Below, piece by piece: positions 41,076-58,359 of a stretch of 64,000 nt of DNA. Within the stretch, counting starts at the first letter, position 1; each line of letters starts with the position of its first letter. Source of the stretch: Polyangia bacterium (GTDB lineage Bacteria > Myxococcota_A > Polyangia > Palsa-1104 > JAEUJZ01); assembly GCA_044222245.1 (NCBI GenBank), contig JBGANQ010000041.1, positions 5,234-69,233 on the forward strand, given 5' to 3'. A model generated the notes under the pieces. The model did no database searches and was not told the origin of the DNA. It saw only the letters and a list, made by a program, of their open reading frames with translations. A program made the translations under genes and the position numbers.

Positions 41076-41136
41076 TTGCGGGGCGGCTTGCTCCCCGATG
41101 GAAACATCGCAGGGTAGGGGGGGGCTCGCGGCGCGG

Positions 41137-42789: not shown

Positions 42790-43127
42790 GGGGGAAGGCC
42801 AGCCCCAGCTAGCCGCGACCGCGGCGACCGCCGGCGGAGCTTGTCTCTGATAAAGCGACCTTGGGCTCGCCAATTTGCGCGACCTGTGCAGTCGGGTCAT
42901 GTAGTCCGGCCTCGCGGTCCGCTTTCCGCCCGGGCCCGCGCTGTCTTTCGCGGTGACACCTTTGGCGAGCAATCTCCAGCGCTTCGGGATGCTACGGAGC
43001 GCGCGCCGGCCAAAGCGAGCCTGCCTGCTCACTGCCGGTAGAGGCAAACGCTCGAGTCTCCCACGCCCTATGTCCCCCGGTCATGGCAAAATGAACCATA
43101 GAACCACTCTTCGAGGCCTGAATCGCG

Positions 43128-43505
43128 ATGTCTGAATGGCTCGCCCGCCACCTTGCCGGGCTGACCTCGTGTGCCCTCGGGGTAGCGGCGCTAGGCACTT
43201 CTTTGATCTTGCTTCTCTCGGGGCAGCGCGCTTCCTCCCTGCCTCTCCCAGACCATATGACGCTCGCCTCGTGGAGCGAGGCCGTGACGCAAGGCCTGCA
43301 ACAAGTGGGACCCGCTCCCATTGTCCTGTTTCTGCTCAGCTTGATCGCCGCCGTCATCGCCCGCGCCCGCGGCGAAGGGTCGCGGTGGCTGTGGGCGGTT
43401 GGAATCGCCAGCGGGGCCTGCGCCCTGGTGGTCCCGGTGGTCTTGGCCGCCCTCGCCCTGCTCTTTATCGTCGCCGTCATCGTGGCGGTAATCACCGGGG
43501 GCTGA
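43128..43505 (+). CDS. Small hypothetical membrane protein (3-4 TM)
   Basis: 125-aa strongly hydrophobic ORF. Confidence 0.55.
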   Translation: MSEWLARHLAGLTSCALGVAALGTSLILLLSGQRASSLPLPDHMTLASWSEAVTQGLQQVGPAPIVLFLLSLIAAVIARARGEGSRWLWAVGIASGACALVVPVVLAALALLFIVAVIVAVITGG

Positions 43506-43660
43506 TGTTGCAGCGCGTGGAGGATGCTACGGTGCTCCTGCCGGTGTCAGCCAAGACGCAGTTGATGCCCCCGCGGCTGCTGAGGGAGCGCTGCGCGCTG
43601 GAGGTTGTCGCCGGTGTGGGTGCACCTCACGCCGCTGCAGCGCGGGCGGATGAGCGCCGC

Positions 43661-46600
43661 ATGACTACGATGCGGACTCGGCCCCGGTGCGCAGTCTTGC
43701 TGGTCTGCCTGGCCCTGGGCTTTGGACTTGCGCTGGTCGGCGGGTGCCATGGCGGCGTTGTTTCAGCCAATGGACCCCTGACCTGCAGCGGACCGCAGCT
43801 TGCGCCGTGCGCGCGGGCGCTGCAAGCGGCCGGGGAGGCGGCTGATGCCACCGCGCTGCGCGAGCGGGCGGCCAAGTATGCCGCGCTCGCCCGCGAGCAC
43901 GACCAGGGCGATCCGTGGGCGCAGCTGTTTGCCGCCCTGCAGCGCCAGCGCAGCACCCTGCCGAGCGATGGGCCAGCGACCGTGATCGTCGCCGAGCTGG
44001 CCGTCGCGCCCCAGGTCTTGGCGGCGGCGGCTCGGGCCAGGGTGGCGGTCGTGGTCCAGGACCTCAAGGAGCCGGCATCCCTCCCGGCCGCCGAGCTTCT
44101 GACCTGGCTGGCCGCGGCCGCGCGCTTCGATCATGTGCTGTGGGTGCGCGGGCAGGCAGCGTGGCAGCTTTTCCCCCTGGACCCGCTGCAGCCTTTCATG
44201 GCGGGCCTTGCCCCGGTGGTGCGCGATGACGCCGCGCTCACCCATCTGACAGAGACGGTGGCGCTGGCGCAGACGCTGCGCGCGGCATTTTCTGCCGCCA
44301 GCGGCTTTCATTACGTCGAAGCCGCGGCCCTGGCCGATCGCCTCGTCGCGCAGGCGGGCCGCGAGGCGACACCCGATGAGCCGGTGCTGCGGGCCCGCTA
44401 CGGGCTGCAGCTGCTCAGGGCGGCCGGGATTGTCCTATCGCGAGCGGGCGCGGGCGACTCCACCCCGGACCTTACTTTTTCCGCTTCCCCGGCCGACACC
44501 CCCTACGGGGATCTGCTCCGGGTGCGCCTGGCCACCAGCAAGGCCCGCACGGACGAGTGGACGGCGCGCCGCACCAACATCTTGCGCGGGATTGCCGCCG
44601 ACCGTCGCGACGACTTCGCCGATCTCATGGCGCCGGCACCGGCCTGCCGCAGCCAGCGCCTGCTGCCCATGGAGTCGGTGCGCGACCTGGCGTTCAGCCA
44701 GCGCCTGGCAGACACCCTGGCCCCAGAGGGGGCGACTCCGGCGGCGGGCCAGCTCCCGCTGAGACAGTGGCAGCAGCGCTATGACACCCTGGTCGAGCTG
44801 GTGTCCGCCACCGGCAGCGCCTGGTCCTACCTGCCCGCCCTGCTGCGTCAGCGCGGTCCCGCTCCGATTTCGCCTTCTCCCCCAGGCCGCACCCAGGCTC
44901 GCGTGACCGAGCTGGCGCTGGCTCACCTGCACGCCAGTCAGGAGCTCCAGCAGGCGGCCCCCGCTCGGTATCAGGTCCTGTCCCAGTTCGAGCTCCTGCT
45001 GTGCGCCGGCCTGCGCGCCGATCCGCCGCTGTTTCGCGAGATGCTCTTTCTCAGCGACGCGAGCGTCAAGTCCCGTCTGGCACCTCCGGCGAGCCCGGCG
45101 GCGGTCCTGGAAGGCGTGCTGTGGGCGGCCCTGGCCGGCCTCGGCTACCCCGATGCGGCGCGGGCGAGCTATTTCAACGGCCTCCACGCGGTGCTGAGCA
45201 GCCGGCTGGGCGGCGATCTGCAGAGCCAGACCGGGTGGGCGGTGGCGGGCCTGTACGCGCTTGATGAGCTGTACCGACGGCTGACTGGAGCGCCATCCCA
45301 GCTGGCGACAGACACCCACCACCTGGTGCGCGCGCTCGCCGACCCGGGGGTGGCGTATCCGGAGCTCGCCGGGCTCGTGCAGGCCGCGGCGCTATATCTG
45401 GGGCTGGTCCTTGACAACGCCTTGGACGCCGCGCTGGTCGGCAATCCCGCCGGATTCCCCAGCCAGCGGCTTGAAGCCTATCAGCTGCTGCAGCGCGCCC
45501 TGCAGACCCTTGGCACAAGTGATGCGGCGGCGGCCGCGAGCAGCGAGGCCCGCGACCTGGCCGCAGTCGCCGATGGCCTCTTTACTGTCCTTGCCGCCGC
45601 TGTGCACAGTAAGCCCGGCTGGGAGCCCCAGTGCAAAGACGAGGCGGCGGCGCAGTCGCCACAGCTGCGCACCGCGCTCGACAAGCTGCGGGCGCTGCGG
45701 CTGCAGCTTATTGGGCCGGCGATTTCTCCGACCACCGCGACCAGCGGACAGCTGCGCACCCGGCTGCTGCTGCAGATCTTGTCGGATCTTCTGGACTACG
45801 GGGCGCGCGATGGTCAGCCGATTCGCTTCGCGACTGCCAGCGATGCCGCGGAGAGGAACGTGCGCGACGGGCTGCGCACCTGGCCGCTCGGCACCGGCGC
45901 GGCGCTGCTGGGTCAGAGCTACCGCCTGCTGCGCGACTATCTGGCGCAGGCCGCGGAGCTGCGCAAGGTGCCGCTCAGCCCGGCCCAGACGCAGGCGCTG
46001 CTGGCGCAGCTCCAGGAGCTCGTCCGGGCGGCGGCGCGGGCCGGCACGGGCTCACAGCTGGTCGCCGCGCTGTCGCAGCTGGACTTCAGCAAGCTGCGCA
46101 GCGACAACCTGGCGCAGGCCGCCGCCGGGCTGGCGCAGGGCCTGTACTTGCACGAGCAGCCGCAGCAGGCCGGCATCCTGCTCCTGACCGCCGCCCTCCT
46201 CGACAGCGGGGACGCTGCGGCGACGCGGGCAGTGCTCGCCGCAGCAGAGCGGCAGGATCGTCCCCTGGTCGCCATGGTGCGGTTCCTCCTGGACAGCCAG
46301 TCTCACCTTCAGGGCCGCGCGCCCGCTCCCTCTGCCTACGCCGCGGCCCTGCGCAGCGATGCCGAGTCGGTCTGCCAGGAGAGCGGAACCGCGCAGGTGT
46401 TGACGCTGCTGCAGGCGGCCAGCGACTTCAGTCACGGCAAGCGCGGGCGCGCCCGCAGCAGCCTGCGCGCCTGGCTGCAGGACGCCGAAGAGCACGGACT
46501 CAGCGTGCCGCGCGTCACCTACCAGTTTGAGGAGAAGGTTGGCACCCTGACCTTCCAGCTGGGCTACTCGCTGTCTTATGGGCTGGGCGTGCTCAACGCC

Positions 46601-47521
46601 GGCAAGGACTTCAAGCTCGGCCTGGGTGCCAGCACAACCCCGCACTCGGAGAGCAAGCTCACGACCAGCTTCGCCAGCCACGACAACGACAAGGCCAACC
46701 AAGAGGCAACCCGGTATTACGTTTATGGCGCGGCGCTGCTCGCCGTCTATGAGCTGCTTGACGGTCACACTGCGGCGGCCGAGCAAGCTGCGGCGCGGGC
46801 GCTTATTGGCAGCGAGGGGCGCACCCGGCTCGGCCGGCGTCCGCTGCCAGCGGGGAACGTGAACCTGGCACATGATTCCCGCGCCGTGTTCGCGGTGGCG
46901 GCGCAGCTGTTGGCTGAGGCCGGACGGCCGATTCTGGCCGGTCGCCTGTGGGCCAAGGTCTACGGCGGTTTTTTCGATCACGATGATGAGGCGACCGTGC
47001 TGTCGATCCTCAGCCCGCTGCCCACCGGACTGGCTGGCGTGGCCGCTGTGCCGCCGCTGCTGCCGCGCGTGCAGGCGTCGCTGCGTCAGCTTGCCCGCGA
47101 CCTGCCTTGCCGCCGCCGCGGGCAGCCCCCCTTGGCGGCCAAGGTGGTCACCTGCGCTGAGTACCCGCTCGCGCTGGCGCTCTCTCTGGGCGGCGATGGC
47201 GAGCCGCTGCCGGGCTTTCCCACCAGGCCCCAGACCGCGTGTGAAAACTGGCAGGCCCTGGACCGCTTCATGCGGGTGCAGCGCGAGCGGCAAGCTCCGC
47301 GGCCGGCAAGGGCCGCCGCTATCACGGCCGCGGTGTCGGCGCTGCTCGCGGCGCGGGATGAAGTCGGGGCGGCTCTTCTGCTGTTGCCCCTGCCGAGCTG
47401 TGACGCAGAGCTGCTTACCGCTGCGCAGCGCGTCGCTGCCACCGGAGTGCCACCTCCGCTGCAGCAGCAGCTGCTCAGCGAAGTGACAAGCTGCACACCA
47501 CGCTCTACGCCTGCGCAGTAA
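43661..47521 (+). CDS. Large hypothetical lipoprotein (about 1286 aa), mostly alpha-helical
   Basis: Long ORF with natural codon bias; lipobox LVGGC after MTTMRTRPR; no family recognised. Confidence 0.72.
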   Translation: MTTMRTRPRCAVLLVCLALGFGLALVGGCHGGVVSANGPLTCSGPQLAPCARALQAAGEAADATALRERAAKYAALAREHDQGDPWAQLFAALQRQRSTLPSDGPATVIVAELAVAPQVLAAAARARVAVVVQDLKEPASLPAAELLTWLAAAARFDHVLWVRGQAAWQLFPLDPLQPFMAGLAPVVRDDAALTHLTETVALAQTLRAAFSAASGFHYVEAAALADRLVAQAGREATPDEPVLRARYGLQLLRAAGIVLSRAGAGDSTPDLTFSASPADTPYGDLLRVRLATSKARTDEWTARRTNILRGIAADRRDDFADLMAPAPACRSQRLLPMESVRDLAFSQRLADTLAPEGATPAAGQLPLRQWQQRYDTLVELVSATGSAWSYLPALLRQRGPAPISPSPPGRTQARVTELALAHLHASQELQQAAPARYQVLSQFELLLCAGLRADPPLFREMLFLSDASVKSRLAPPASPAAVLEGVLWAALAGLGYPDAARASYFNGLHAVLSSRLGGDLQSQTGWAVAGLYALDELYRRLTGAPSQLATDTHHLVRALADPGVAYPELAGLVQAAALYLGLVLDNALDAALVGNPAGFPSQRLEAYQLLQRALQTLGTSDAAAAASSEARDLAAVADGLFTVLAAAVHSKPGWEPQCKDEAAAQSPQLRTALDKLRALRLQLIGPAISPTTATSGQLRTRLLLQILSDLLDYGARDGQPIRFATASDAAERNVRDGLRTWPLGTGAALLGQSYRLLRDYLAQAAELRKVPLSPAQTQALLAQLQELVRAAARAGTGSQLVAALSQLDFSKLRSDNLAQAAAGLAQGLYLHEQPQQAGILLLTAALLDSGDAAATRAVLAAAERQDRPLVAMVRFLLDSQSHLQGRAPAPSAYAAALRSDAESVCQESGTAQVLTLLQAASDFSHGKRGRARSSLRAWLQDAEEHGLSVPRVTYQFEEKVGTLTFQLGYSLSYGLGVLNAGKDFKLGLGASTTPHSESKLTTSFASHDNDKANQEATRYYVYGAALLAVYELLDGHTAAAEQAAARALIGSEGRTRLGRRPLPAGNVNLAHDSRAVFAVAAQLLAEAGRPILAGRLWAKVYGGFFDHDDEATVLSILSPLPTGLAGVAAVPPLLPRVQASLRQLARDLPCRRRGQPPLAAKVVTCAEYPLALALSLGGDGEPLPGFPTRPQTACENWQALDRFMRVQRERQAPRPARAAAITAAVSALLAARDEVGAALLLLPLPSCDAELLTAAQRVAATGVPPPLQQQLLSEVTSCTPRSTPAQ

Positions 47522-47556
47522 CGCCCAGGGTGGACAGAGCGCGCAAACCCAGAGAC

Positions 47557-47706
47557 TGCGTGGTCGACGTCGCTGTGGAAGAATTCTTGGACCGAGTCAG
47601 CCGCGATGCGCTGATGGGAAAGCTGGCCAGTCGGATCGTGCGCAAGCGGATGCAGGGACTGGCCCGCCGCTACCTGGAGGCCGGCATCATGGCCGATGAT
47701 AGATGA
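47557..47706 (+). pseudogene. Degenerate fragment of a group II intron-type reverse transcriptase
   Basis: Translates CVVDVAVEEFLDRVSRDALMGKLASRIVRKRMQGLARRYLEAGIMADDR*, resembling the RT segment VVDxDLEKFFDRVNHDxLM...IRRYLEAG; not in ORF track. Confidence 0.72.
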
Positions 47707-47733
47707 TAACTGTTGTATTTGACTTTAAGGGAC

Positions 47734-48179
47734 CCCTGTATCTGGTCCCCGGCTCGCAAAAGGACGGCATCCAGGATCACTCCGAGCTCACTGGCCGGCC
47801 GGAAGGATATGAGCAGTCACCCGAGTGGATCTCGAACCTGACGGCGAAGCTCAAGTATGTGGTCGAGCGCGACCGCGTCGCCGAGCTGGTAAAGAGTCAC
47901 GGCCTCACCGCCGCCAAGGGGCCGGCGGGCTCGGTGCTGGTATTTCACAGCAACATCGTCCACGCCTCTCCTCCCAACATTACGCCGCTGGAGCGCTCTA
48001 CTCTGCTCTTTTCCTACAATCACATCAGCAACGCCCCCCCCGAGTCGCTGCGCCGGCGGCCCGACTTCTTGTCGAGCGCCGATACCCATCCGATCCAGGA
48101 GGTAGATGAGGAGCTCGGCCACCTCCTGAGCTGCGCCGTGGCACGCCCGCTTGGCCGGGGGAACCATGAGCACCACTAG
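47734..48179 (+). pseudogene. 3' half of the interrupted Fe(II)/2-oxoglutarate dioxygenase
   Basis: PLYLVPGSQ, GPAGSVLVFHSNIVHAS (distal His), ERSTLLFSYN, RPDFLS; stop overlaps NRPS start. Confidence 0.9.
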
Positions 48180-51100
48180 CCTGCCCCCCGCCGCGTGGAA
48201 CGAGACTGCGGCCGACTTCCCCCACGACCGCTGCGTCCACGAGCTGTTCGCGGACCAGGTCCGCCGCACCCCGGACGCGGTGGCGGTGGTCTATGGCGAT
48301 GCGGCCCTGACCTATGCCGAGCTCGATCGCCGGGCCAACCAGCTGGCGCACCGGCTGCGCGCCAGCGGCGTCGGGCCCGATACGCTGGTCAGCCTGTGCG
48401 TGGAGCGCTCGCTGCACTTGGCGGTGGGCGTGCTGGGAATCTTGAAGGCGGGCGGCGCCTACGTACCCCTGGACCCGGCCTACCCGGCAGAGCGCCTGGC
48501 GCAGCTGCATGGGGACTCGCAGGCGGCGGTGCTGCTGACGCAGCGGGCGCTCCTGGGTCGCCTGCCGCAGCCGGCGGGCGCGCTCTTGCTGCTGGACGAG
48601 CCGACAGCCGACCCGTGGCCGCAGGATGCGCCGGCAGTGGCGATGAGCGCCGACTCTCTGGGCTACGTCATCTACACCTCCGGATCGACCGGTCGTCCCA
48701 AAGGGATCTGTCTGCCCCACCGCGCGCTGGTGAACCTGATCGTCTGGCACGAGCGCACGCTCCTGTGCGGCGTCAACACCCTGCAGTACGCCTCGCTGAG
48801 CTTTGACGCCAGCTTCCACGAGATGTTCGCTGCCTGGTGCTCGGGCGGGACGCTGTTCCTGCTCAGCGAAGAGGTCCGCCACGATCTCGGGGCGCTGGCG
48901 CGCTTCATCCACGCCCACCAGATCGAAAAGGTCATCCTCCCGGTCATCGTCCTGTCGCAGCTCGCCGAGCAGGTGCGCGGTCAGGAGCAGCTGCTCGGCA
49001 GCCTCAAGGAGCTCACCACCACCGGCGAGCAGCTGCAGATTACCGGGCCGATCATCCAGCTCTTCCGCCGGCTTCCCGGCTGCGCGTTTCACAACCACTA
49101 CGGACCTTCCGAGAGCCATGTGGTGACCGCCTACACCCTGCCCGCCGATCCCGACGCCTGGGTGACCCACCCGCCGATCGGGCGGCCGATTGCCAACACC
49201 CGCATCTATCTGCTGGACGAGCAGCGCCGCCCAGTGCCGGTAGGCGCCACGGGCGAGCTGTATATAGGAGGCGTGTGCCTGGCGCGCTGCTACCTCGGTC
49301 AGCCCGAGCTCACCGCCAGCCGCTTTGTCGCCACCGGCGAGCTGCCCGCTGGCGAGACCCGGCTTTACCGCACCGGCGATCTGGCGCGCTACCGGCCCGA
49401 TGGCTGCCTGGAGTATCTAGGCCGCATCGATCACCAGGTCAAGATCCGCGGCTTCCGCATCGAGCTGGGTGAAGTCGAGACGGTGCTCAGCCAGCACCCG
49501 GGGGTGCGCGAGGTTGCGGTGCTGGCGCGCGAGGATGCGCCGGGGGAAAAGCGCCTGGTGGCCTATGTCGTGCCGGACTTCGCCGCCGCCACCTCGGGAG
49601 CCGCGCCGCTGCACGGCGAGCCGCTGCACGGCGAGCCGGTGCGCGCCCTGGGCGCTGACCTCCGCGCCCGGCTGCGCGAGAAGCTGCCCGACTACATGAT
49701 CCCCTCCGCGCTCGTCATGCTGGCGGCGCTGCCGCTGACCCCCAACGGCAAGCTGGATCGCCGCGCGCTGCCGCCGCCCGGCCCCGCCCGCCCCGAGCTG
49801 GCCACCGCCTATCGCGCGCCGCGCACCGCGCTGGAGCGGGAGGTGACGGCGCTGTGGGAGCAGCTCCTGCACCTGGACGGCATCGGGGTCGAGGACAGCT
49901 TCTTCGATCTGGGCGGCAGCTCGATCCACGCGGCGCAGTTCCTGGCCCGGGTGCGCAGCGCCTACGGCATTGAGCTGACCTTTGCGCGCTTCTTCGCCCA
50001 GCCGACGGTGGCGGCGCTCGCCGCGGCGCTGCAAGAGCAGCGGCCGGAAGGGCCCGCCGCGGCGACGATACCCATGGTGCCGCGCGAGGGCGGGCTGGCG
50101 CTCTCGCTGGCTCAGGAGCGGCTATATTATCTGTACCAGCTCGCTCCCGAAAGCCGCGCCTATAACTGTGCTTCCTGCTTTCACCTGCGCGGCACGCTGG
50201 ATGAGCAGGGGCTGGAGCGCAGCCTGCAAGCGCTGGTGGCGCGGCATGAGATCCTGCGCACCCGCTTCAGCCAGCGCGACGGACGGCCGCTGCAGCTTAT
50301 CGATTCACCGCCGCCGCCGCCGCCGCCGTCGCGCACCCTGGCGGTGGTGGATCTGCAGGCGCTGCCCGAAGCCGAGCGCCCGCTGGCCGCCCGCCGGCAG
50401 CTGGAAAAGGAGACGCAGCACCTGTTCAACCTGGAGCAGGGGCCGCTGTTCCGGGCCACGCTGTGGCGCCTCGGACCGGGCGAGCACTTCCTGCTGCTCA
50501 ACTTCCACCACATCATCATCGATGGCTGGTCGATCGAGGTCGCGCTGCGCGAGCTGGCGCTGTATTACAAAGCCTGGGTCACGCACACGCCGCCGGCGCT
50601 CGCCCCGCTTCCCATCCAGTATGCCGACTACGCGGCGTGGCAGCTGCAGCAGGCCGACAGCGCCGCCCAGCGCGAGCTTGTCGGCTGGTGGAAGCAGAAG
50701 CTGCAGGGCGCGGCGCCGCTCCTCCAGCTGCCCACCGATCATCGGCGCCCCGCAGTGCAAAGCTTCCGCGGCGCCACGGTGGCATTTGCCATCGACGCCC
50801 CGCTGACCGCGGCGCTGCGCGAGCTGGCGGCGCGCAGCGGCATGACCCTGTCCATGGTGCTGCTGGCCGCGTACGCGGCGCTCTTGCATCGCTACACCCG
50901 CAGCGAAGACCTGCTCATCGGCATCCCCAGTGCCAGCCGCCATCGCGTCGAGCTGGAAGGAGTGCTGGGATTTTTCATCAACACCCTGCCGCTGCGCATC
51001 GATCTGTCGGGCGGGCCTTCTTTTGCCGAGCTGCTCGGTCGGGTGCGCGCCACCGCGATCGAGGCCTACGAGCGCGACGCAGCCCCGTTTGAGCAGATCG

Positions 51101-54100
51101 TCAAGGAGCTGCGCCCCGAGCGCGATCCCGCCTACAACCCGGTGGTGCAGCTCGGCTTTGCGCCGCAGCCGCCGGCCGAGCGCGCCCTGGCGCTGCCCGG
51201 GCTGCAGGCCGAGCACGTAGAGGTCGATGCCCAGAAGACGGTCTTCGATCTGACCCTTTACCTTTGGGAGGAGCCGACCCGCACCGCCGCCCTCTTTGAG
51301 TACAGCACCGACCTGTTCACGCCTGCAACGATCGCCCGCCTCGCCGAGCAGTATGTCCTGCTGCTGCGTGCCGCGCTAAAGGACGCGCAGCAGCAGGTCG
51401 CGGCCCTGCCGCTGCTGTCCGCTGCAGAGCGCGACAAGATCCTGCAGCAGTGGAACCCGCCCCCCAGCGCCCCGGCGGCCGCGCCGAGCCTGTATGAGCT
51501 GTTTGCGGCGCAGGCGGCGCGCGCGCCCGCGGCGCCGGCGGTGGTGATGGATGCAGTCACGGTGACCTACGGGGAGCTCGACCAGCGGGCGAGCCAGCTG
51601 GCGCAGCTGCTGCAGGCGCTGGAGCTGCCTGCAGAGACGCCGATTGGGGTGTGCCTGGAGCGCTCTGTGGATCTGATCGTGGCGTTTCTGGGCATCCTCA
51701 AGGCTGGCGGGGTGTACACGCCGCTCGACCCCGGCTACCCCCAGAGCCGACTGCACTACATGCTCGCTGACAGCGCCGCGCCCGTGGTCCTCACCTCGGC
51801 CCGCCATGCCGAGCTGCTCGCCGGCGCTGGAGCTCGGGTCCTGTGTCTGGACACGCCGGCCGCGGCGCTTGCCGCGACGGCCGAGCGCCGTCCGCCCCCG
51901 GTGGCGCCAGGTCAGGCCGCCTACCTGATCTATACCTCGGGCTCCTCCGGCCGGCCCAAGGGAGTGGTCATCGAGCACCGCAGCGCGGTCGCCTTTGTCC
52001 GCGCCCAGCAGGCGGTGGTCGGGGTCACCGCAGAGTCACGAGTCCTACACCTGGCCTCGCCGAGCTTCGACGCCTCGGTATGGGAGCTGCTGCTGGCGCT
52101 GACCGCCGGCGCCGCGCTGTTCCCGGTGCCGGTGGCGGCGACGCTCCCCGGGCCCGAGCTGTGTCGGTTCCTGCGCCAGCACCGCATCTCGATCGCCTTC
52201 CTGGCGCCGGCGGCGCTGGCGCAGCTGCCGCGGGAGGAGCTGCCCGAGCTGACCACCCTGCTCACCGGTGGCGAGGCCTGTCCCGCTGCGCAGGTCCAGC
52301 GCTGGGCCCCCGGGCGCCGCTTCATCAACGCCTACGGACCCACCGAGGCCACGGTCTGCGCGACGATGCAGGTGTGCACCCCGGGCCCCGAGGCGCCGGC
52401 CATCGGCGTGCCGCTGACCAACGCGCGCGTGTACGTCCTGGATGCCGCCGGCCAGCTGCTTCCCACCGGCGTTCCCGGAGAGCTCTACCTTGGCGGTGCG
52501 AGCCTCGCCCGCGGCTACCTGAACCAGCCCGAGCTGACGGCGCAGCGGTTTCTCCCCGATCCCTTTGCGGCGCCCGGCGCCCGCATGTACCGGACCGGCG
52601 ACCTGGGGCGGTGGCGCGCCGATGGGAGCCTGGAGTTTTTGGGCCGCCTGGATGATCAGATCAAGCTGCGCGGCTTGCGCATCGAGCTCGGTGAGATCGA
52701 GTCCGTCCTGCGCGAGCAGCCGCTGATCGCGGCGGCGGCGGTGGTCCTGCGCGAGGAGCGGGACGGTGATCGGCGGCTGGTCGCCTACCTGGTCCCGCGC
52801 GCCGGCGCGCCGACCGCCGCCCCGGCGGCAGCCCCCGCCACGCTGAAGGAGCAGCTGGTCGGCGACTGGCTGCGCCTCTATGAAGACGTCTACAAGCGGG
52901 CCGACGCCGCCGGCGACCCGACCTTCAATATCGAAGGCTGGAACAGCAGCTTCACCGGCCAGCCGATCCCGGCGGCGCAGATGAGCGCCTGGGTGGCGAG
53001 CACGGTGGCGCGGCTGCAGGCGCTGGCGCCGCGGCGGGTGCTGGAGCTTGGCAGCGGCAGCGGCCTGCTCTTGTTCAAGGTGGCCCCGAGCTGCGCGCAG
53101 TATCTGGGGACGGATTTCTCGCCGGCCGCGGTGGCGCGCCTTGGGCAGCTGGTGGCGGCGCGCGGGCTGACCCAGGTGACGCTGCAGCAGCGCGAGGCGA
53201 ACCAGCTGGCCGACCTGCCCGAGAAGAGCTTTGACACCATCATCCTGAACTCGGTCGTGCAGTACTTTCCCGGGCTCGCCTACCTGCGCGAGGTGCTGGG
53301 CGGCGCCGTGCGCGCCCTGACCGCGCCGGGGGTGATCTTCATTGGCGATGTGCGCAGCCTGCCGCTGCGCGAGGCGTTTCACGCTGCGGTGCAGCTCTAC
53401 CAGGCGGCGCCGCAGACCGCCGCCGCGGCCCTGCGCGACAAGACCAGCCGCGCTGCCAGCAGTGACCGCGAGCTGCTGCTTGCGCCCGAGTTCTTCACCG
53501 CGCTGGCGTCCGAGCTGGGACCGCAGGTGCATGCCGAGGTCTGGCTCAAGCGCGGCCGCGGCAGCGATGAGATGACGCGCTACCGCTACGATGTGGTGCT
53601 GTTTGTCGGCTGCGCGGCGCCGGCGGTCGAGCCGAGCGCCACGCGCCACTGGGCCGCGGTGGACGCCTCGGTTGCCGGGCTGCAGGCGTGGCTCACGCAG
53701 GCCAGGCCGCAGGTCGCCGAGATCCTGGCGATTCCCAACGCGCGGCTCGCTGGCGACTGGCAGGCGCTGCAGCGGCTGCAGCAGGCGCCCGACTGCAGCT
53801 GCGACGAGCTTGCGGCCGCCCTGGCGCCGGCGGTGGCGGCCGCGGTGGCCCCCGAGGATCTGTGGCAGCTCGGGGAGCAGCTCGGCTACGCCGTGCGCAT
53901 CACCTACTCGGCAACCGGCGGCCCCGCCTGCATGGACGTACTGTTCGAGCGCGCGGCGGCTGCTCCCTACCCGCGCCCGTGGCGACCCGCCCCCCGGCAG
54001 CCGGCCGCCCGCGAGCGCGCGGACGACTATGCCAACGATCCGCTGCGCGCCAAACAGGACCGGGATCTCATCCCGCAGGTGCGCGAGGCCCTCTTGCGCA

Positions 54101-57100
54101 AGCTGCCTGCGTATATGATTCCCGCCGCCTTCGTCGTGCTCGATGAGCTGCCGCTGACCGCCAGCGGCAAGCTGGATCGCAAGCGCCTGCGCGCCCCCGC
54201 CGAGCTCCGCCCCGAGCTCGGGCGCGACTATGTCGCCCCGACGACCGCCTTGCACAGCGAGCTTGTCGCGATCTGGCGCACGGTGCTGGGAGTCGAGCGC
54301 ATCGGAATTCATGATCCGTTCTTCGAGCTGGGCGGTCACTCCCTGCTGCTGCCGCAGGTGCGCGCGGCCATCGCGACCCGGCTGGGTATCCAGGTGCCGG
54401 TCATCAAGCTGCTGCAGTGCGCGACCGTGAGCGCGCTTGCCGCATACCTGCAGGCGAGCGCCGAGCCGGAGGCGCCGGCCGTGCCGCCGCCGCGCCCCGA
54501 GGTCGCCGCGTCCGCCGCCGCGAGCCGCGCGGTGGCCGTGATAGGTCTTGCCGGGCGGTTCCCCCAAGCCGCCGATGTCGAGGAGCTGTGGCAGAACCTG
54601 GCCAGCGGGCGGGAGTGCCTGACCTTCTTTACGCCGGCCGAGCTGGCAGAGCAGGGCATCGAGCCGGAGCTGCTCCGCTCGCCGCGCCTGGTGCCTGCCT
54701 GCGGCGTACTAGAGGAGGCGATGGGCTTTGACGCGGGCTTTTTCGGCTGCGGTCCCAAAGAGGCGCTGTACATGGACCCGCAGCACCGCGCGTTTCTTGA
54801 GTGCGCGTGGGCCGGACTGGAGGATGCGGGGTACACCGCGCCGACCTATGATGGCGCGATCGGCGTGTTTGCTGGCGCCGAGGCCCCGCGCTACTGGCTG
54901 GAGCGGCTCGGCCTGCACGGCGGACCGTGGAACGCCGAGGACTATCAGGCGGTGCACGGCAACCTGCCCGACAACCTCACCACGCGGGTGGCCGACCAGC
55001 TTGGCCTGCGCGGCCCGGCGATCACGGTGGCCACTGCTTGCTCGACCTCGCTGGTCGCCATCCACCTGGCCTGCCAGCAGCTGCTGGCGGCGCAGTGCGA
55101 CCTGGCGCTGGCCGGCGGCGTGGGAGTCCACTCGCCGTTCGCGCCGGGGCACCTGTATCAGGACGGCGGCCTGATGTCGCGCAGCGGTCACTGCCGCCCC
55201 TTTGACGCCGCCGCCGAGGGCATCGTCAGCGGCAGCGGGGTCGCGGTGGTGGTGCTCAAGCGGCTCGAAGATGCGCTGCGCGATGGCGATCACATAAGAG
55301 CGGTGATCCGCGGCTCGGCGATCAACAACGACGGCGGCAACAAGGCCAGCTACCTGGCGCCGAGCGTCGAGGGCCAGCTGGCGGTGCTGCGCAAGGCCTA
55401 CGCTTCGGCGGACGTCGATCCCGCGACCGTGTCGTACATAGAGGCGCACGGCACAGCGACCCGGCTGGGCGATCTGGTCGAGTTTACGGCGCTGCGCCGC
55501 GCCTTCGCGGAGCGCACCGAGCGGCGGCAGTTCTGCGCGCTCGGCTCGGTCAAGAGCAACCTGGGTCACCTGGGTGCCGCGGCAGGTGTGACCGGTCTTA
55601 TCAAGGCGACGCTGGCGCTGGAGCGCGGGCTCATTCCGCCCACCCTTCACTTTACCGCACCGCCGGCCGAGCTCGAGCTGCAGGACAGTCCGTTTTTCGT
55701 CCATGCGCAGCCGCGCCCCTGGCCGGCGGCAGCGCAGCCGCGCCGCGCCGGGGTCAGCGCCTTCGGGGTCGGCGGCACCAACGCCCACGTCGTGCTGGAG
55801 CAAGCGCCGGCGATCCCGGCGGCGGGCCGCGCCCGCGGCGTGCAGCTGCTGCTCTTGTCGGCGCGCACCCCCTGGGCGCTGGACGAGGCGACGCGGCGGC
55901 TCGCCGCGCACCTGCAGCAGCACCCCGAGCAGCCCCTGCCCGATGTCGCCTATACGCTGCAGCGCGGCCGCGCCCACCTGCAGCACCGGCGGGCGGTCAT
56001 CGCCAGCGACGCCGCTGCTGCCAGCGCCCGGCTGAGCGCGGCGGAGCCGACGCTGGTAGCGACCGGCAGCGTGCCGGCGCGGCCGCCCAAGCTGGTGTTC
56101 ATGTTCCCCGGCGGCGGCACGCAGCGGGTGCAGATGGGAAGGGAGCTCTATGAGCAGGAGCCGGTCTACCGGGAGGCGCTGGCGCGCTGCGCGCGGCTGT
56201 TTCAAAACGAGCTTGGCTGCGACCTGCTCGCGCTGCTGTTCCCGCCGCCGGGCGACGAGCCGGCGGCGGCGGCGGCGCTGCTGCGCCCCTCGCTGAACAA
56301 CGCGGCGATCTTCGCCACCGAGTTTGCGCTGACCGAGCTGCTCCAATCCTGGGGGCTGCGGCCGGCTGCGGTGACCGGTCACAGCCTGGGCGAGTACGCG
56401 GCGGCGTGCCTGTCGGGGGTGCTGCGCCTGGAGGACGCGGTGGCCCTGGTCGCCCTGCGCGGGCGCATCTATGACGAGCTGACCGGCGGGGCGACAATGA
56501 GCGTGCTGCTGCCCGAGGCGACCCTGCGCGCGCGGCTGGGCAGCGGGGTCGAGCTCGCGGCAGTCAACGGTCCGGCTTCCTGTGTGGTCGCCGGCGAGCG
56601 CGCCGCCGTGCTGCGGCTGCAGGCGGAGCTCGCTGCGGAGGGGCATGAGGCGCGCCTGCTGGCGATCGACTGCGCGGCGCACTGCTCGAGCGTCGAGCCC
56701 CACCTGCCGCGCCTCACCGCGCGGGCGGCGACCCTGGACCTGCAGGCGCCGCGCATTCCCATCGTGTCCAACCTCACCGGCGGCTACCTGAGCGAGAAGC
56801 AGGCGCGCGACCCAGCGCACTGGGCCGCCCACCTGCGTGGGACGGTGCGCTTTGCCGCCGGACTTGCGACCTTGCTCGCCGACCCGGACGCGGTGTTCCT
56901 GGAGGTCGGGCCCGGCTGGACGCTGAGCACCCTGTGCCGCCGCCATCCCGACGCCGGGGCCGAGCGGGTGGCGGTGGCCAGCCTGGCCAGCGCCGGCTCG
57001 GGCCGCTCGGATCTGGAGGTGCTGCTGTTGGCGCTGGGGCAGCTGCACTGCACAGGGGTGGCGGTGGACTGGCAGCGCTTCTCTGCCACCGAGCAGCGCC

Positions 57101-58359
57101 GCCGGGTGCCGCTGCCCACGTATCCGTTTGAGCGGACTTTATACGACCTGGGAACGCGCGCGGTGCGGACCGGGGCGGCGCTGCCGGCGGTGCCGCCGCT
57201 TGCTCGCGCCGTCGGGACCGCGGTGCTGCGTTCGCTGCCGCCGCTCGCCCCCCGGGATGCGCTGGCGCAGCGGCTGGCCGCGCTGTGGTCCGAGGCGCTC
57301 GGGTTCAGCCCGCGCGATGGCGACAACTTCTTTGATCACGGAGGCAACTCCTTTGTCGCCGTCCAGCTGAGCTCCAAGGTGCGCGATGAGCTGAACATCG
57401 CTCTGCCGCTGCACACCCTGGTCCAGCACCCGACCTTCGCGGCGCTGCTGGAGTACGTGCGCGCGCTGCCCAGCGCCGCCGGCGGGCCGGCGGGCCGCCG
57501 CGAGCTGCCCGCGCCCGAGCCCGCGCCTGCTGCCGCCTCCCTGCTGGTCGAGTTCAACCGCGGCGCCGCCACGCAGCTGCCGCTGTTTCTCATCCAGCCG
57601 ATCGGCGGCACCGTGTTTACCTACGCCGCCCTGGCCCGCGCCCTGCATCCCAGCCTGCCGGTCTACGGGGTGCGCGCCTCGGGCATGGAGGCCGGTGAGG
57701 AGGTGCTCACCGCGCTGCCGCAGATCGTCGCCCGCTACCTGGAGAGCCTGCGCGCCGTGCAGCCGCGCGGTCCCTACCGCCTGGGTGGTCACTCCGCTGG
57801 CGGCATCATCGCCTTTGCCATCGCCGCGCAGCTCCTGGCGGAGGGTGAGCAGGTGAGCTGGCTGCTGCTGCTCGATAGCGCCTCGCTGCCCCAGATGCGG
57901 CGCACCGCGGCCCTGCCGCTCGCGCAGCTGCTCGCCGAGCTCGATCGCGGCGGCAGCGCGCCGAGCGAGGGTCAGCTGAGCCTGCGCGCGGCGCTGCAGG
58001 CCGACACGCCATTCCGGGCGATCGCGCTCGGGACGCTGCAGGCCCTGGCCGGGGCGCAGCTGGGACCCTTGCCGGTCCGCCTGACCTATGTGCTGGCCCG
58101 CGATGAGCCCGGCCCGCTCGACGCGCAGCGGGCGGCGTTCTGGCTGGCCATGACCGAGCAGAGCTTCGCGCTGCAGCGGGTCGCCGGCACACACTTCACC
58201 ATGATGGAGCCGCAGCAGCTGACCCCCATCGTCGAGCTCTGTCACGAGCAGCTGCTCGGCCGCCGCGCCGCCGACCCGGCCAGCGACCTGGGTGAGCCGC
58301 GGCGGGTCGCTAGCTCGCAGCAAGGCCGCGCCGTCCCGGGCCCACCGGACTTAGGATGA
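48166..58359 (+). CDS. Hybrid NRPS-type I PKS: A-T-C-A-MT-T-KS-AT-ACP-TE
   Basis: A cores YTSGSTGRPKG and YTSGSSGRPKG; T GGSS and GGHS; C HHIIIDG; MT VLELGSGSG and LNSVVQYFP; KS TACSTSL, EAHGT, NLGHL; AT GHSLG; ACP GGNS; TE GHSAG. Confidence 0.96.
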   Translation: MSTTSLPPAAWNETAADFPHDRCVHELFADQVRRTPDAVAVVYGDAALTYAELDRRANQLAHRLRASGVGPDTLVSLCVERSLHLAVGVLGILKAGGAYVPLDPAYPAERLAQLHGDSQAAVLLTQRALLGRLPQPAGALLLLDEPTADPWPQDAPAVAMSADSLGYVIYTSGSTGRPKGICLPHRALVNLIVWHERTLLCGVNTLQYASLSFDASFHEMFAAWCSGGTLFLLSEEVRHDLGALARFIHAHQIEKVILPVIVLSQLAEQVRGQEQLLGSLKELTTTGEQLQITGPIIQLFRRLPGCAFHNHYGPSESHVVTAYTLPADPDAWVTHPPIGRPIANTRIYLLDEQRRPVPVGATGELYIGGVCLARCYLGQPELTASRFVATGELPAGETRLYRTGDLARYRPDGCLEYLGRIDHQVKIRGFRIELGEVETVLSQHPGVREVAVLAREDAPGEKRLVAYVVPDFAAATSGAAPLHGEPLHGEPVRALGADLRARLREKLPDYMIPSALVMLAALPLTPNGKLDRRALPPPGPARPELATAYRAPRTALEREVTALWEQLLHLDGIGVEDSFFDLGGSSIHAAQFLARVRSAYGIELTFARFFAQPTVAALAAALQEQRPEGPAAATIPMVPREGGLALSLAQERLYYLYQLAPESRAYNCASCFHLRGTLDEQGLERSLQALVARHEILRTRFSQRDGRPLQLIDSPPPPPPPSRTLAVVDLQALPEAERPLAARRQLEKETQHLFNLEQGPLFRATLWRLGPGEHFLLLNFHHIIIDGWSIEVALRELALYYKAWVTHTPPALAPLPIQYADYAAWQLQQADSAAQRELVGWWKQKLQGAAPLLQLPTDHRRPAVQSFRGATVAFAIDAPLTAALRELAARSGMTLSMVLLAAYAALLHRYTRSEDLLIGIPSASRHRVELEGVLGFFINTLPLRIDLSGGPSFAELLGRVRATAIEAYERDAAPFEQIVKELRPERDPAYNPVVQLGFAPQPPAERALALPGLQAEHVEVDAQKTVFDLTLYLWEEPTRTAALFEYSTDLFTPATIARLAEQYVLLLRAALKDAQQQVAALPLLSAAERDKILQQWNPPPSAPAAAPSLYELFAAQAARAPAAPAVVMDAVTVTYGELDQRASQLAQLLQALELPAETPIGVCLERSVDLIVAFLGILKAGGVYTPLDPGYPQSRLHYMLADSAAPVVLTSARHAELLAGAGARVLCLDTPAAALAATAERRPPPVAPGQAAYLIYTSGSSGRPKGVVIEHRSAVAFVRAQQAVVGVTAESRVLHLASPSFDASVWELLLALTAGAALFPVPVAATLPGPELCRFLRQHRISIAFLAPAALAQLPREELPELTTLLTGGEACPAAQVQRWAPGRRFINAYGPTEATVCATMQVCTPGPEAPAIGVPLTNARVYVLDAAGQLLPTGVPGELYLGGASLARGYLNQPELTAQRFLPDPFAAPGARMYRTGDLGRWRADGSLEFLGRLDDQIKLRGLRIELGEIESVLREQPLIAAAAVVLREERDGDRRLVAYLVPRAGAPTAAPAAAPATLKEQLVGDWLRLYEDVYKRADAAGDPTFNIEGWNSSFTGQPIPAAQMSAWVASTVARLQALAPRRVLELGSGSGLLLFKVAPSCAQYLGTDFSPAAVARLGQLVAARGLTQVTLQQREANQLADLPEKSFDTIILNSVVQYFPGLAYLREVLGGAVRALTAPGVIFIGDVRSLPLREAFHAAVQLYQAAPQTAAAALRDKTSRAASSDRELLLAPEFFTALASELGPQVHAEVWLKRGRGSDEMTRYRYDVVLFVGCAAPAVEPSATRHWAAVDASVAGLQAWLTQARPQVAEILAIPNARLAGDWQALQRLQQAPDCSCDELAAALAPAVAAAVAPEDLWQLGEQLGYAVRITYSATGGPACMDVLFERAAAAPYPRPWRPAPRQPAARERADDYANDPLRAKQDRDLIPQVREALLRKLPAYMIPAAFVVLDELPLTASGKLDRKRLRAPAELRPELGRDYVAPTTALHSELVAIWRTVLGVERIGIHDPFFELGGHSLLLPQVRAAIATRLGIQVPVIKLLQCATVSALAAYLQASAEPEAPAVPPPRPEVAASAAASRAVAVIGLAGRFPQAADVEELWQNLASGRECLTFFTPAELAEQGIEPELLRSPRLVPACGVLEEAMGFDAGFFGCGPKEALYMDPQHRAFLECAWAGLEDAGYTAPTYDGAIGVFAGAEAPRYWLERLGLHGGPWNAEDYQAVHGNLPDNLTTRVADQLGLRGPAITVATACSTSLVAIHLACQQLLAAQCDLALAGGVGVHSPFAPGHLYQDGGLMSRSGHCRPFDAAAEGIVSGSGVAVVVLKRLEDALRDGDHIRAVIRGSAINNDGGNKASYLAPSVEGQLAVLRKAYASADVDPATVSYIEAHGTATRLGDLVEFTALRRAFAERTERRQFCALGSVKSNLGHLGAAAGVTGLIKATLALERGLIPPTLHFTAPPAELELQDSPFFVHAQPRPWPAAAQPRRAGVSAFGVGGTNAHVVLEQAPAIPAAGRARGVQLLLLSARTPWALDEATRRLAAHLQQHPEQPLPDVAYTLQRGRAHLQHRRAVIASDAAAASARLSAAEPTLVATGSVPARPPKLVFMFPGGGTQRVQMGRELYEQEPVYREALARCARLFQNELGCDLLALLFPPPGDEPAAAAALLRPSLNNAAIFATEFALTELLQSWGLRPAAVTGHSLGEYAAACLSGVLRLEDAVALVALRGRIYDELTGGATMSVLLPEATLRARLGSGVELAAVNGPASCVVAGERAAVLRLQAELAAEGHEARLLAIDCAAHCSSVEPHLPRLTARAATLDLQAPRIPIVSNLTGGYLSEKQARDPAHWAAHLRGTVRFAAGLATLLADPDAVFLEVGPGWTLSTLCRRHPDAGAERVAVASLASAGSGRSDLEVLLLALGQLHCTGVAVDWQRFSATEQRRRVPLPTYPFERTLYDLGTRAVRTGAALPAVPPLARAVGTAVLRSLPPLAPRDALAQRLAALWSEALGFSPRDGDNFFDHGGNSFVAVQLSSKVRDELNIALPLHTLVQHPTFAALLEYVRALPSAAGGPAGRRELPAPEPAPAAASLLVEFNRGAATQLPLFLIQPIGGTVFTYAALARALHPSLPVYGVRASGMEAGEEVLTALPQIVARYLESLRAVQPRGPYRLGGHSAGGIIAFAIAAQLLAEGEQVSWLLLLDSASLPQMRRTAALPLAQLLAELDRGGSAPSEGQLSLRAALQADTPFRAIALGTLQALAGAQLGPLPVRLTYVLARDEPGPLDAQRAAFWLAMTEQSFALQRVAGTHFTMMEPQQLTPIVELCHEQLLGRRAADPASDLGEPRRVASSQQGRAVPGPPDLG

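What the first reader, a model, noticed from the sequence alone, without database searches (positions are those of the whole stretch)
48166..58359. Compact single-protein NRPS-PKS making a probable (hydroxy)prolyl - N-methyl-hydrophobic residue - ketide
Seen: A-T-C-A-MT-T-KS-AT-ACP-TE, with no starter C domain and no KR/DH/ER. By-eye alignment to GrsA gives A2 code DAWFLGAVCK, between Leu-type (DAWFLGNVVK) and Phe-type (DAWTIAAVCK) codes. The MT sits inside A2, the usual position of N-methyltransferases. Inference: a dipeptide with a free N-terminus is extended by one unreduced ketide and released by TE as a beta-keto acid, ketone or cyclised product. I do not recognise a characterised cluster with this layout.
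Basis: partly seen in the sequence, partly recalled or inferred. Interest (0 to 1): 0.78.

Follow-up and report, generated by a model that had tools for sequence, protein, structure and literature searches.

The report
CorA-like dipeptide-ketide synthetase with N-methyltransferase
A single intact 3,397-residue myxobacterial enzyme joins two amino acids (one N-methylated) to one ketide unit, a layout already characterised in the coralinone synthetase CorA, and here it most likely makes an N-methylated (pyrrolo)pyrazinone ring from a hydroxyproline-like starter.

Summary
ORF 48166..58359 (+) is one uninterrupted NRPS-PKS, A-T-C-A(N-MT)-T-KS-AT-ACP-TE. It has no starter C and no KR/DH/ER, and every catalytic motif is intact. 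The A2 code DAWFLGAVCK is reproduced.

The claim that no characterised cluster has this layout is wrong. CorA of Corallococcus exiguus (coralinone) is A-T-C-A-T-KS-AT-ACP-TE. Its dipeptidyl beta-keto acid decarboxylates and cyclises to a 5-methylpyrazinone, and variants with an embedded nMT were already listed bioinformatically.

New here:
- A1 (code DAHITTHVVK) is linked in 15 of 19 loci to a PhyH dioxygenase whose nearest solved relative is a proline 3/4-hydroxylase.
- Sister clusters in related myxobacterial MAGs end in a reductase (A-T-C-A(MT)-T-R, the peramine-synthetase layout) instead of KS-AT-ACP-TE.
- In this genome the hydroxylase is split by a 6,777-bp insertion, yet the synthetase is under purifying selection (dN/dS 0.13).
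- The AT motif is CAAH, and its nearest solved relatives load unusual extender units.

Most likely product: an N-methyl, C-alkyl pyrrolo[1,2-a]pyrazinone or pyrazinone. Verdict: a new variant of a known kind, of moderate interest.

The parts
48166..58359 (+). NRPS-PKS gene (3397 aa from ATG; TTG at 48151 also opens the frame)
   Evidence: It is 99% identical to P0003 on an independent metagenome contig.
48229..49770 (+). A1 adenylation domain, code DAHITTHVVK
   Evidence: The same code is seen in 15 of 19 PhyH-adjacent A domains.
49837..50034 (+). T1 carrier domain (GGSS, Ser591)
50095..51444 (+). Condensation domain (HHIIIDG at 786)
51502..52830 (+). A2 adenylation core, code DAWFLGAVCK
52831..54030 (+). 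N-methyltransferase inserted in A2 (VLELGSGSG, ILNSVVQYFP, RYRYDVV, IPNARL)
54031..54225 (+). A2 C-terminal subdomain (A10 Lys in GKLDRKRL)
54259..54450 (+). T2 carrier domain (GGHS, Ser2064)
54526..56040 (+). KS domain plus KS-AT linker (Cys2297, His2433, His2473)
56095..57063 (+). AT domain (GHSLG Ser2745, Arg2770, CAAH 2841-2844)
57253..57465 (+). ACP (GGNS, Ser3067)
57580..58251 (+). Thioesterase (Ser3215, Asp3242, His3348)
40488..40956 (+). 5' half of the PhyH-family Fe/2OG hydroxylase (carries WHQD; ends ...EFNG, GGAC)
40957..47733 (+). 6,777-bp insertion splitting the hydroxylase (CvfB-like gene, 1461-aa unknown protein, RT-like remnant), flanked by a GGAC duplication
47734..48179 (+). 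3' half of the hydroxylase (PLYLVPGS... distal His in VHAS). Its stop overlaps the NRPS-PKS start by 14 nt.
39043..40134 (+). Periplasmic binding protein (Peripla_BP_4), syntenic with PhyH in the reductase-type sister clusters
33363..38447 (-). Pkinase-AAA_16-GAF-STAS protein (1694 aa). Its orthologue flanks every related cluster, including that of Sorangium atrum.

Best explanation
This is a CorA-type dipeptide-ketide assembly line of a myxobacterial MAG.

Shown: the domain order and intact catalytic motifs.

Inferred steps:
1. A1 loads a hydroxylated proline-type imino acid. In related clusters this is supplied by the translationally coupled Fe/2OG hydroxylase.
2. A2 loads a hydrophobic residue (Leu/Phe-like), which the embedded MT N-methylates on T2.
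3. C makes the dipeptide.
4. KS-AT-ACP add one malonyl-type unit without reduction.
5. TE hydrolyses the beta-ketoacyl thioester.
6. As shown for CorA, the beta-keto acid loses CO2 spontaneously. The free N-terminal amine then condenses with the new ketone to close a six-membered ring.

With a hydroxyproline starter, loss of water plus a further 2H aromatises the ring to an N-methyl, C-alkyl pyrrolo[1,2-a]pyrazin-1-one. This is the peramine logic, with a PKS-derived alkyl group where peramine has H.

In this genome the hydroxylase is interrupted. The synthetase therefore either works on proline or scavenged hydroxyproline, or is starved of its preferred starter.
For: - Architecture and active sites are intact.
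- CorA has the same layout, with in vitro proof of beta-keto acid, decarboxylation, cyclisation and pyrazinone formation. nMT variants are noted in clade II.
- Named myxobacterial relatives with the same PKS end: Sorangium atrum, Sorangium So ce1000 and Chondromyces apiculatus are C-A-T-C-A(MT)-T-KS-AT-ACP-TE, and Nannocystis exedens is A-T-C-A-T-KS-AT-ACP-TE. Identities are KS 56-60%, AT 52-62%, TE 38-46%.
- The same giant kinase-STAS neighbour sits next to the Sorangium atrum gene.
- Sister clusters in same-family MAGs are PBP-PhyH-[A-T-C-A(MT)-T-R]-kinase, with A1 55-64% identical and the same A1 code. A homologous dipeptide is thus released as an aldehyde there and as a ketone here.
- PpzA-1 (peramine) is A-T-C-A-M-T-R. 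It probably uses 4-hydroxyproline plus N-Me-Arg, and its product cyclises spontaneously (PMC6926027).
- The hydroxylase model (pLDDT 91) best matches trans-3/4-proline hydroxylase H11 (45% id, TM 0.90-0.94). GriE follows at 38% and EctD at 32%.
- A DAHxxTHVV A domain lies within 3 kb of the hydroxylase homologue in 15 of 19 loci.
- After its own class, A1's nearest A domains carry DVQF[IV]A[QH]VV proline codes.
- The synthetase is under purifying selection against a 99.4% identical strain: 52 synonymous and 18 non-synonymous differences, dN/dS 0.13.
- Myxobacteria do make pyrrolopyrazinones: nannozinone B.
Against: - No product data exist.
- The A1 code matches no published code.
- The hydroxylase tree does not resolve proline hydroxylase H11 from leucine hydroxylase GriE.
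- CorA's own sequence could not be obtained, so kinship to CorA rests on layout and on named cor-like relatives.
- The only hydroxylase copy in this 83%-complete MAG is split.
- The aminotransferase / CmcI-like MT / cupin genes that accompany the 60%-identical relatives are absent.
- The AT motif CAAH and its nearest solved relatives point away from plain malonyl-CoA, so the ring substituent is uncertain. Those relatives are 5yda (AAAH) and ZmaA-AT (GAAH, hydroxymalonyl-ACP).
- No corB-like peptidase is nearby.
Confidence: 0.6

Rival explanations
1. Same assembly line, but A1 loads a hydroxylated open-chain amino acid with a primary amine, for example 5-hydroxyleucine made by a GriE-like enzyme. 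The product would then be a monocyclic 1-methyl-5-alkyl-2(1H)-pyrazinone, a direct N-methyl analogue of coralinone.
For: GriE (leucine 5-hydroxylase) is the second-best solved relative of the hydroxylase (38% id), and the tree leaves H11 versus GriE unresolved. CorA and its relatives use aliphatic residues. The A1 code differs from the canonical DVQ proline codes at 236, 239, 299 and 301.
Against: A1's nearest A domains outside its own class all carry proline codes, and it shares their HVV tail and insertions. The hydroxylase is closer to the proline hydroxylase at 45% versus 38%. The A-T-C-A-M-T-R sister clusters mirror the peramine synthetase, which uses hydroxyproline.
Confidence: 0.2
2. 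The cluster is a decaying remnant in this strain. With the hydroxylase split and the accessory genes lost, the synthetase makes nothing relevant, or only shunt products such as an N-methyl diketopiperazine or a linear ketone.
For: The hydroxylase is interrupted by 6,777 bp in two strains, and no second copy exists in the MAG. The aminotransferase / CmcI-like MT / cupin trio of relatives is absent. Truncated peramine synthetases are known to fall back on diketopiperazines.
Against: The 10.2-kb ORF has no stop or frameshift, and all motifs are intact. dN/dS is 0.13 over 70 differences that accumulated after the shared insertion. The reductase-type sister clusters also lack the trio, so it is not core. 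The MAG is only 83% complete.
Confidence: 0.15
3. The PKS module installs a non-malonyl extender (alkyl-, hydroxy- or aminomalonyl). The ring substituent, or even the ring chemistry, would then differ from the CorA precedent.
For: The AT motif is CAAH (GTSH, GASH or GAAH in relatives) instead of HAFH, YASH or CorA's SGFH. The best solved AT relatives are 5yda (AAAH; from memory the broad-range SpnD-AT) at E 2.7e-64 and ZmaA-AT (GAAH, hydroxymalonyl-ACP) at 2.5e-60, ahead of CurL and DEBS.
Against: No CCR, FkbH-type or free ACP genes that would supply such units are present in the window or in the related loci. GHSLG and Arg2770 are as in CorA, which takes malonyl- and methylmalonyl-CoA.
Confidence: 0.25

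Closest known systems
CorA, coralinone synthetase of Corallococcus exiguus SDU70 (PMC10979478, PMC13691573)
   Same: A-T-C-A-T-KS-AT-ACP-TE in one protein, with no reductive PKS domains and a terminal TE. It is myxobacterial. The AT has GHSLG and an atypical specificity motif.
   Different: The window has an N-MT inside A2, a proline-type rather than aliphatic A1, a coupled Fe/2OG hydroxylase, AT motif CAAH rather than SGFH, and no corB peptidase. No direct sequence comparison was possible, because the CorA sequence was not retrievable.
Clade II cor-like NRPS-PKS of Sorangium, Chondromyces and Nannocystis (described bioinformatically only)
   Same: The same PKS end (KS 56-60%, AT 52-62%, TE 38-46% identity). 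An nMT is embedded in A2 in Sorangium and Chondromyces. Sorangium atrum has the same Pkinase-AAA_16-GAF-STAS neighbour and a cupin.
   Different: Those carry an N-terminal C domain and other A1 codes (for example DAWFLGNVV), with no adjacent PhyH seen in the two loci inspected. Nannocystis A1 domains (DVYITTHVV) belong to the window's A1 class but lack the nMT.
PpzA-1/PerA peramine synthetase of Epichloe (PMC6926027)
   Same: The A-T-C-A-M-T order. The first residue is probably hydroxyproline and the second is N-methylated. The released carbonyl cyclises spontaneously onto the ring nitrogen.
   Different: PpzA-1 is fungal and releases through an R domain as an aldehyde. The window instead extends with KS-AT-ACP and releases by TE, while the reductase version exists in the window's sister clusters. 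Sequence kinship was not tested.
Dipeptide-aldehyde pyrazinone synthetases (AusA/PznA type, A-T-C-A-T-R)
   Same: A two-module dipeptide with a free amine closing onto the released carbonyl. The AusA NCBIfam model is the second-best full-length hit.
   Different: The score of 992 is far below the AusA cut-off of 2500. Those enzymes have no PKS module and no MT.

Membership tests
CorA-type (cor-like) NRPS-PKS 5-alkylpyrazinone synthetases | Two aminoacyl modules (A-T, C-A-T) giving a dipeptide with an unacylated N-terminus | tested here: met
   no starter C; A domain begins about 20 residues from the N-terminus
CorA-type (cor-like) NRPS-PKS 5-alkylpyrazinone synthetases | One minimal KS-AT-ACP module without KR/DH/ER, followed by a TE with Ser-Asp-His | tested here: met
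CorA-type (cor-like) NRPS-PKS 5-alkylpyrazinone synthetases | Sequence kinship to CorA and its myxobacterial relatives | tested here: inconclusive
   Kinship to named Sorangium, Chondromyces and Nannocystis synthetases of this layout is shown. CorA itself was not retrievable.
CorA-type (cor-like) NRPS-PKS 5-alkylpyrazinone synthetases | N-terminal primary amine that forms the N4=C5 imine of a monocyclic pyrazinone | tested here: inconclusive
   A1 looks proline-type, which would give a secondary amine and a fused ring
CorA-type (cor-like) NRPS-PKS 5-alkylpyrazinone synthetases | Adjacent corB (DegP-like peptidase) self-resistance gene. The paper reports this mainly for Corallococcus clusters. 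| tested here: not met
   no such peptidase among the window's genes
CorA-type (cor-like) NRPS-PKS 5-alkylpyrazinone synthetases | Product is a 5-alkyl-2(1H)-pyrazinone | not testable with these tools
   needs expression and LC-MS/NMR
Peramine-type pyrrolopyrazine synthetase (PpzA-1) | Domain order A-T-C-A-M-T | tested here: met
Peramine-type pyrrolopyrazine synthetase (PpzA-1) | C-terminal thioester reductase releasing a dipeptide aldehyde | tested here: not met
   The window ends in KS-AT-ACP-TE. An R domain (NAD_binding_4) is present in sister clusters L017, L020, L026, L123 and L137.
Peramine-type pyrrolopyrazine synthetase (PpzA-1) | First module uses 4-hydroxyproline | tested here: inconclusive
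   hydroxylase nearest to proline 3/4-hydroxylase H11; A1 code novel
Interrupted adenylation domain with backbone N-methyltransferase | SAM-MT inserted between the A core and the A C-terminal subdomain, with NRPS N-MT motifs | tested here: met
   VLELGSGSG, ILNSVVQYFP, RYRYDVV, IPNARL; 5wmm E 4.5e-51
Fe(II)/2OG free-amino-acid hydroxylases (H11 / GriE / EctD clade of PhyH) | HxD...H iron triad on one intact polypeptide | tested here: not met
   The triad residues are present, but WHQD lies in the 5' half and VHAS in the 3' half, 6,777 bp apart. Orthologues in relatives are intact.

The most novel reading that the evidence does not exclude
Myxobacteria carry a bacterial counterpart of the fungal peramine pathway in two interchangeable release versions. 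A proline hydroxylase feeds a dedicated DAHITTHVV A domain. The N-methyl dipeptide then leaves either as an aldehyde (R domain) or, as here, as a PKS-extended ketone, giving C-H or C-alkyl pyrrolopyrazinones. These would act as signals read by the conserved periplasmic binding protein and the giant kinase-like STAS protein. In this lineage an insertion in the hydroxylase has switched the starter unit while the synthetase stays under selection.
Probability: 0.3. Interest if true: 0.65.

Novelty: new variant of a known kind. Interest (0 to 1): 0.45.

Why it matters
The finding places an orphan metagenomic megasynthase in the recently characterised CorA family of myxobacterial morphogen-like pyrazinones, so its chemistry is predictable and testable with one gene.

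The added value lies in three points:
- It defines a hydroxylase-plus-A-domain cassette with an unpublished specificity code.
- It offers a natural pair of homologous clusters that differ only in release chemistry (R versus KS-AT-ACP-TE). This is a clean example of how C-5 substitution of pyrazinone-type rings evolves.
- It suggests that peramine-like pyrrolopyrazinones may be made by bacteria.

Tried and rejected
- Retrieving CorA's sequence failed. Full-length and PKS-region protein searches were swamped by multimodular NRPS/PKS. The ACP-TE search found Sorangium, Nannocystis and Chondromyces relatives but not Corallococcus. The PDB copy lacks CorA. The paper's supplement gives only a BioSample number.
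- A phylum-wide genome search with the long query failed. With the TE alone it found only weak matches.
- Literature and supplement searches for the codes DAHITTHVVK, DAWFLGAVCK and DAWFIGAVCK returned nothing.
- PDB-code text searches did not identify 7e01/7dzz. The fold search did.
Read-level evidence for or against excision of the insertion, and for expression, could not be sought.
- Halogenase reading of the dioxygenase: rejected, because it has HxD rather than HxA/G.
- Tetramic-acid closure by the aa2 nitrogen: rejected on chemistry, because that nitrogen is a tertiary N-methyl amide.
- The insertion as an assembly artefact: rejected, because a second assembly that differs at 0.6% of positions carries it.
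- No intact hydroxylase allele close to the window's was found in genomes or metagenomes. The best is 55-56% identity.
Full report
**Observation**

The window has about 70% G+C. The ORF 48151..58359 (+) is uninterrupted. Gene callers on an independent contig start it at the ATG at 48166, giving 3397 aa.

Pfam gives A (to 534), T, C (649-1098), A (1118-1457), a methyltransferase (1615-1751), T (2037-2100), KS (2126-2501), AT (2649-2971), ACP and TE (3144-3367). There is no KR/DH/ER and no N-terminal C domain.

An alignment with five full-length relatives shows every catalytic motif in place:
- carrier serines in GGSS, GGHS and GGNS;
- HHIIIDG in the C domain;
- KS Cys/His/His;
- AT GHSLG, Arg and His;
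- TE Ser3215/Asp3242/His3348;
- N-MT motifs VLELGSGSG, ILNSVVQYFP, RYRYDVV and IPNARL.

The MT region alone has one close solved relative, the interrupted A-MT-A protein 5wmm (E 4.5e-51). The next hit is at 1e-4.

The A2 code DAWFLGAVC(K) is reproduced. A2 aligns without gaps to the GrsA spacing between positions 235 and 331.

**Organism**

The window is contig C28 of a 9.6-Mb, 83%-complete MAG. The window therefore comes from an uncultured myxobacterium.

**Known precedent**

CorA of Corallococcus exiguus SDU70 has exactly A-T-C-A-T-KS-AT-ACP-TE. Heterologous expression and in vitro reconstitution showed that it makes a dipeptidyl beta-keto acid. This spontaneously decarboxylates, cyclises and oxidises to the 5-methylpyrazinone coralinone, a morphogen.

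A survey of 110 cor-like clusters defined a clade II (Sorangium, Chondromyces, Nannocystis, Polyangium) with embedded KR, nMT or cMT domains (PMC10979478).

A search restricted to ACP-TE found just such named relatives:
- Sorangium atrum, Sorangium sp. So ce1000 and Chondromyces apiculatus: C-A-T-C-A(MT)-T-KS-AT-ACP-TE.
- Nannocystis exedens: A-T-C-A-T-KS-AT-ACP-TE.
- Identities to the window: KS 56-60%, AT 52-62%, TE 38-46%.

The Sorangium atrum gene is flanked by a 1687-aa Pkinase-AAA_16-GAF-STAS protein and a cupin. The window and its 60%-identical relatives have the same unusual kinase-like neighbour.

**Closest relatives and conserved context**

Only two metagenomic proteins share the whole architecture at 60% identity, P0016 and P0017. 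Their contigs read kinase-STAS, then an intact 277-aa PhyH dioxygenase, then the NRPS-PKS. An aminotransferase, a CmcI-like methyltransferase and a cupin sit alongside.

In the window the dioxygenase is in two pieces. Residues 1-141 of the profile are at 40488..40956 and residues 140-211 at 47734..48179. The break is exact...EFNG | PLYLVPGS.... It is flanked by GGAC at 40953-40956 and 47730-47733, so the insert is 6,777 bp.

A JGI metagenome contig (L005) is 99.38% identical over 21.7 kb and carries the same insert. The split is therefore real and older than the divergence of the two strains.

tblastn of the whole MAG finds no second hydroxylase copy and no CmcI-like or cupin homologue.

**A sister family with a reductase**

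Searching relatives' genomes, GTDB genomes and metagenomes with the hydroxylase uncovered a second version of the cluster in several myxobacterial MAGs. Its order is periplasmic binding protein, PhyH, an NRPS of A-T-C-A(MT or MT-like insert)-T-R (NAD_binding_4), then the same kinase-STAS protein.

Its A1 is 55-64% identical to the window's. The binding protein is about 53% identical to the window's gene at 39043..40134.

In a hydroxylase tree the six cluster-linked enzymes form one clade (99/98). This splits into a KS-AT-ACP-TE subclade (window, L001, L002; 97/93) and a reductase subclade (95/85).

Homologous clusters thus differ chiefly in whether the dipeptide is released as an aldehyde or extended and released as a ketone. 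The same relation holds between the classical pyrazinone synthetases and CorA.

A-T-C-A-M-T-R is also the layout of the fungal peramine synthetase PpzA-1. Feeding experiments indicate that its first substrate is 4-hydroxyproline and its second is N-methylated arginine. Its aldehyde cyclises spontaneously to a pyrrolopyrazinone (PMC6926027).

**First residue**

Motif-anchored extraction gives the A1 code DAHITTHVV(K). The code is identical in P0016, P0017 and the reductase-type enzymes.

Across all fetched loci, 15 of 19 A domains lying within 3 kb of a hydroxylase homologue carry DAH[ITV][ITML]THVV. This argues that these A domains take the hydroxylase's product.

A1's nearest A domains are, in order:
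- a D[AV][HY]ITTHV[VA] class (55-57% identity), which includes the first A domain of the Nannocystis NRPS-PKSs;
- domains with canonical proline codes DVQF[IV]A[QH]VV (49-54% identity).

The hydroxylase has HxD...H, so it is a hydroxylase and not a halogenase. An AlphaFold model of the intact orthologue (pLDDT 91) best matches trans-3/4-proline hydroxylase H11 bound to proline or hydroxyproline (45% identity, TM 0.90-0.94). GriE leucine hydroxylase follows at 38% and EctD at 32%.

The tree does not separate H11 from GriE, and the code is unpublished. Hydroxyproline is therefore the best guess (about 0.55) and not a result.

Nannozinone B, a pyrrolopyrazinone from Nannocystis pusilla, shows that such rings exist in myxobacteria. 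Assigning it to the Nannocystis genes is my inference.

**Second residue and extender**

P0056 and Chondromyces carry near-identical codes. The 60% relatives have DVWIVGGIA, and the reductase type has the aromatic-looking DASTIAAVC. A2 thus varies within the family.

The AT has GHSLG, like CorA. Its specificity motif is C2841-A-A-H2844, placed 99 residues after the serine exactly as CorA's S2353-G-F-H2356 is. Relatives have GTSH, GASH or GAAH.

The best solved relatives of the AT are, in order:
- 5yda (AAAH; from memory the broad-range splenocin SpnD-AT);
- ZmaA-AT (GAAH, hydroxymalonyl-ACP, PMC4207774);
- then CurL, the 8xju/8xjy PKS (probably colibactin ClbI, from memory) and DEBS.

No genes for unusual extender supply are nearby. 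Malonyl- or methylmalonyl-CoA remains the default, but the size of the ring substituent is uncertain.

**State of the pathway here**

Between the window and L005 the synthetase shows 52 synonymous and 18 non-synonymous differences (dN/dS 0.13). All of these arose after the shared insertion, so the enzyme has stayed under purifying selection without its hydroxylase.

The 3' hydroxylase fragment shows 5 synonymous and 1 non-synonymous change. The counts are small and I leave this unexplained.

Downstream lie a divergent LysR gene and an ABC-HlyD-OEP exporter set. These are absent from the relatives' contigs.

**Mechanism**

Shown:
- domain order and intact active sites;
- homology to cor-like synthetases;
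- the hydroxylase-A1 linkage;
- the R versus PKS-TE alternation.

Inferred from CorA and PpzA-1:
- TE hydrolysis and loss of CO2;
- attack of the N-terminal amine on the ketone;
- with hydroxyproline, dehydration and loss of 2H to an N-methyl, C-alkyl pyrrolo[1,2-a]pyrazin-1-one.

A tetramate closure is excluded, because the aa2 nitrogen is a tertiary amide.

**Verdict**

This is a new variant of a known kind: a CorA-like synthetase with an nMT, a hydroxylase-linked proline-type starter and an unusual AT. It is not an unprecedented layout. Interest is moderate at 0.45.

Noticed in passing
window 40957-47733: The 6,777-bp insert in the hydroxylase is single-copy in the MAG. Only a CvfB-like fragment (about 90% identity) recurs on contig C151, and 60-90-bp stretches of the insert's left end (insert positions 42-198) recur on C111 and C24. 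The insert carries a CvfB-like S1-domain gene (41869..42789) and a 1461-aa protein (43136..47521) with no Pfam or NCBIfam hit.
   Followed up: partly
window 47557-47706: A 50-codon frame (CVVDVAVEEFLDRVSRDALMGKLASRIVRKRMQGLARRYLEAGIMADDR*) resembles the N-terminal part of a group II intron/retron-type reverse transcriptase (resemblance judged from memory). The only indels between the window and the 99.4% identical contig L005 fall in or next to it (near 47539, 47604 and 47695), consistent with decay.
   Followed up: partly
window 47734-48179: The 3' fragment of the split hydroxylase shows 5 synonymous and 1 non-synonymous difference against L005, with dS 0.046, higher than its neighbours (0.004-0.019). 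Counts are small and the cause is unexplained.
   Followed up: partly
window 33363-38447 (-); L150 19599-24662; L001 3776-8842: A roughly 1690-aa Pkinase-AAA_16-GAF-STAS protein is conserved next to this family of synthetases. It appears from uncultured MAGs to Sorangium atrum, in both the reductase and the PKS-TE versions. This suggests a dedicated regulator or sensor. In the window it is on the opposite strand to its orientation in relatives.
   Followed up: partly
L001 20191-22977; L002 919-3596: The 60%-identical relatives carry a class I/II aminotransferase (NCBIfam also matches the GntC cyclodehydratase model at 1e-77, below cut-off), a CmcI-like methyltransferase and a cupin next to the synthetase. 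None of the three is in the window's genome, apart from a 42% aminotransferase paralogue.
   Followed up: partly
L131, L133, L140, L023, L025: In other phyla (for example Pyrinomonadaceae MAGs) the same hydroxylase sits between NRPS genes of larger assembly lines, directly after an A domain of the DAHxxTHVV class. The hydroxylase plus A domain pair thus behaves as a portable cassette.
   Followed up: partly
window 22766-25987 and 20085-21995: A class II lanthipeptide synthetase (DUF4135 + LANC_like) and a TIR-SIR2 protein lie upstream. A radical SAM + DegT aminotransferase pair lies at 30677-33189. All appear unrelated to the synthetase.
   Followed up: no
G000 contig C41:52133-52972: A second thioesterase-bearing megasynthase frame in the same MAG (36% identity to this TE) is read through 3 stop codons (2 TGA, 1 TAA). 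It is possibly a pseudogene or carries assembly errors.
   Followed up: no
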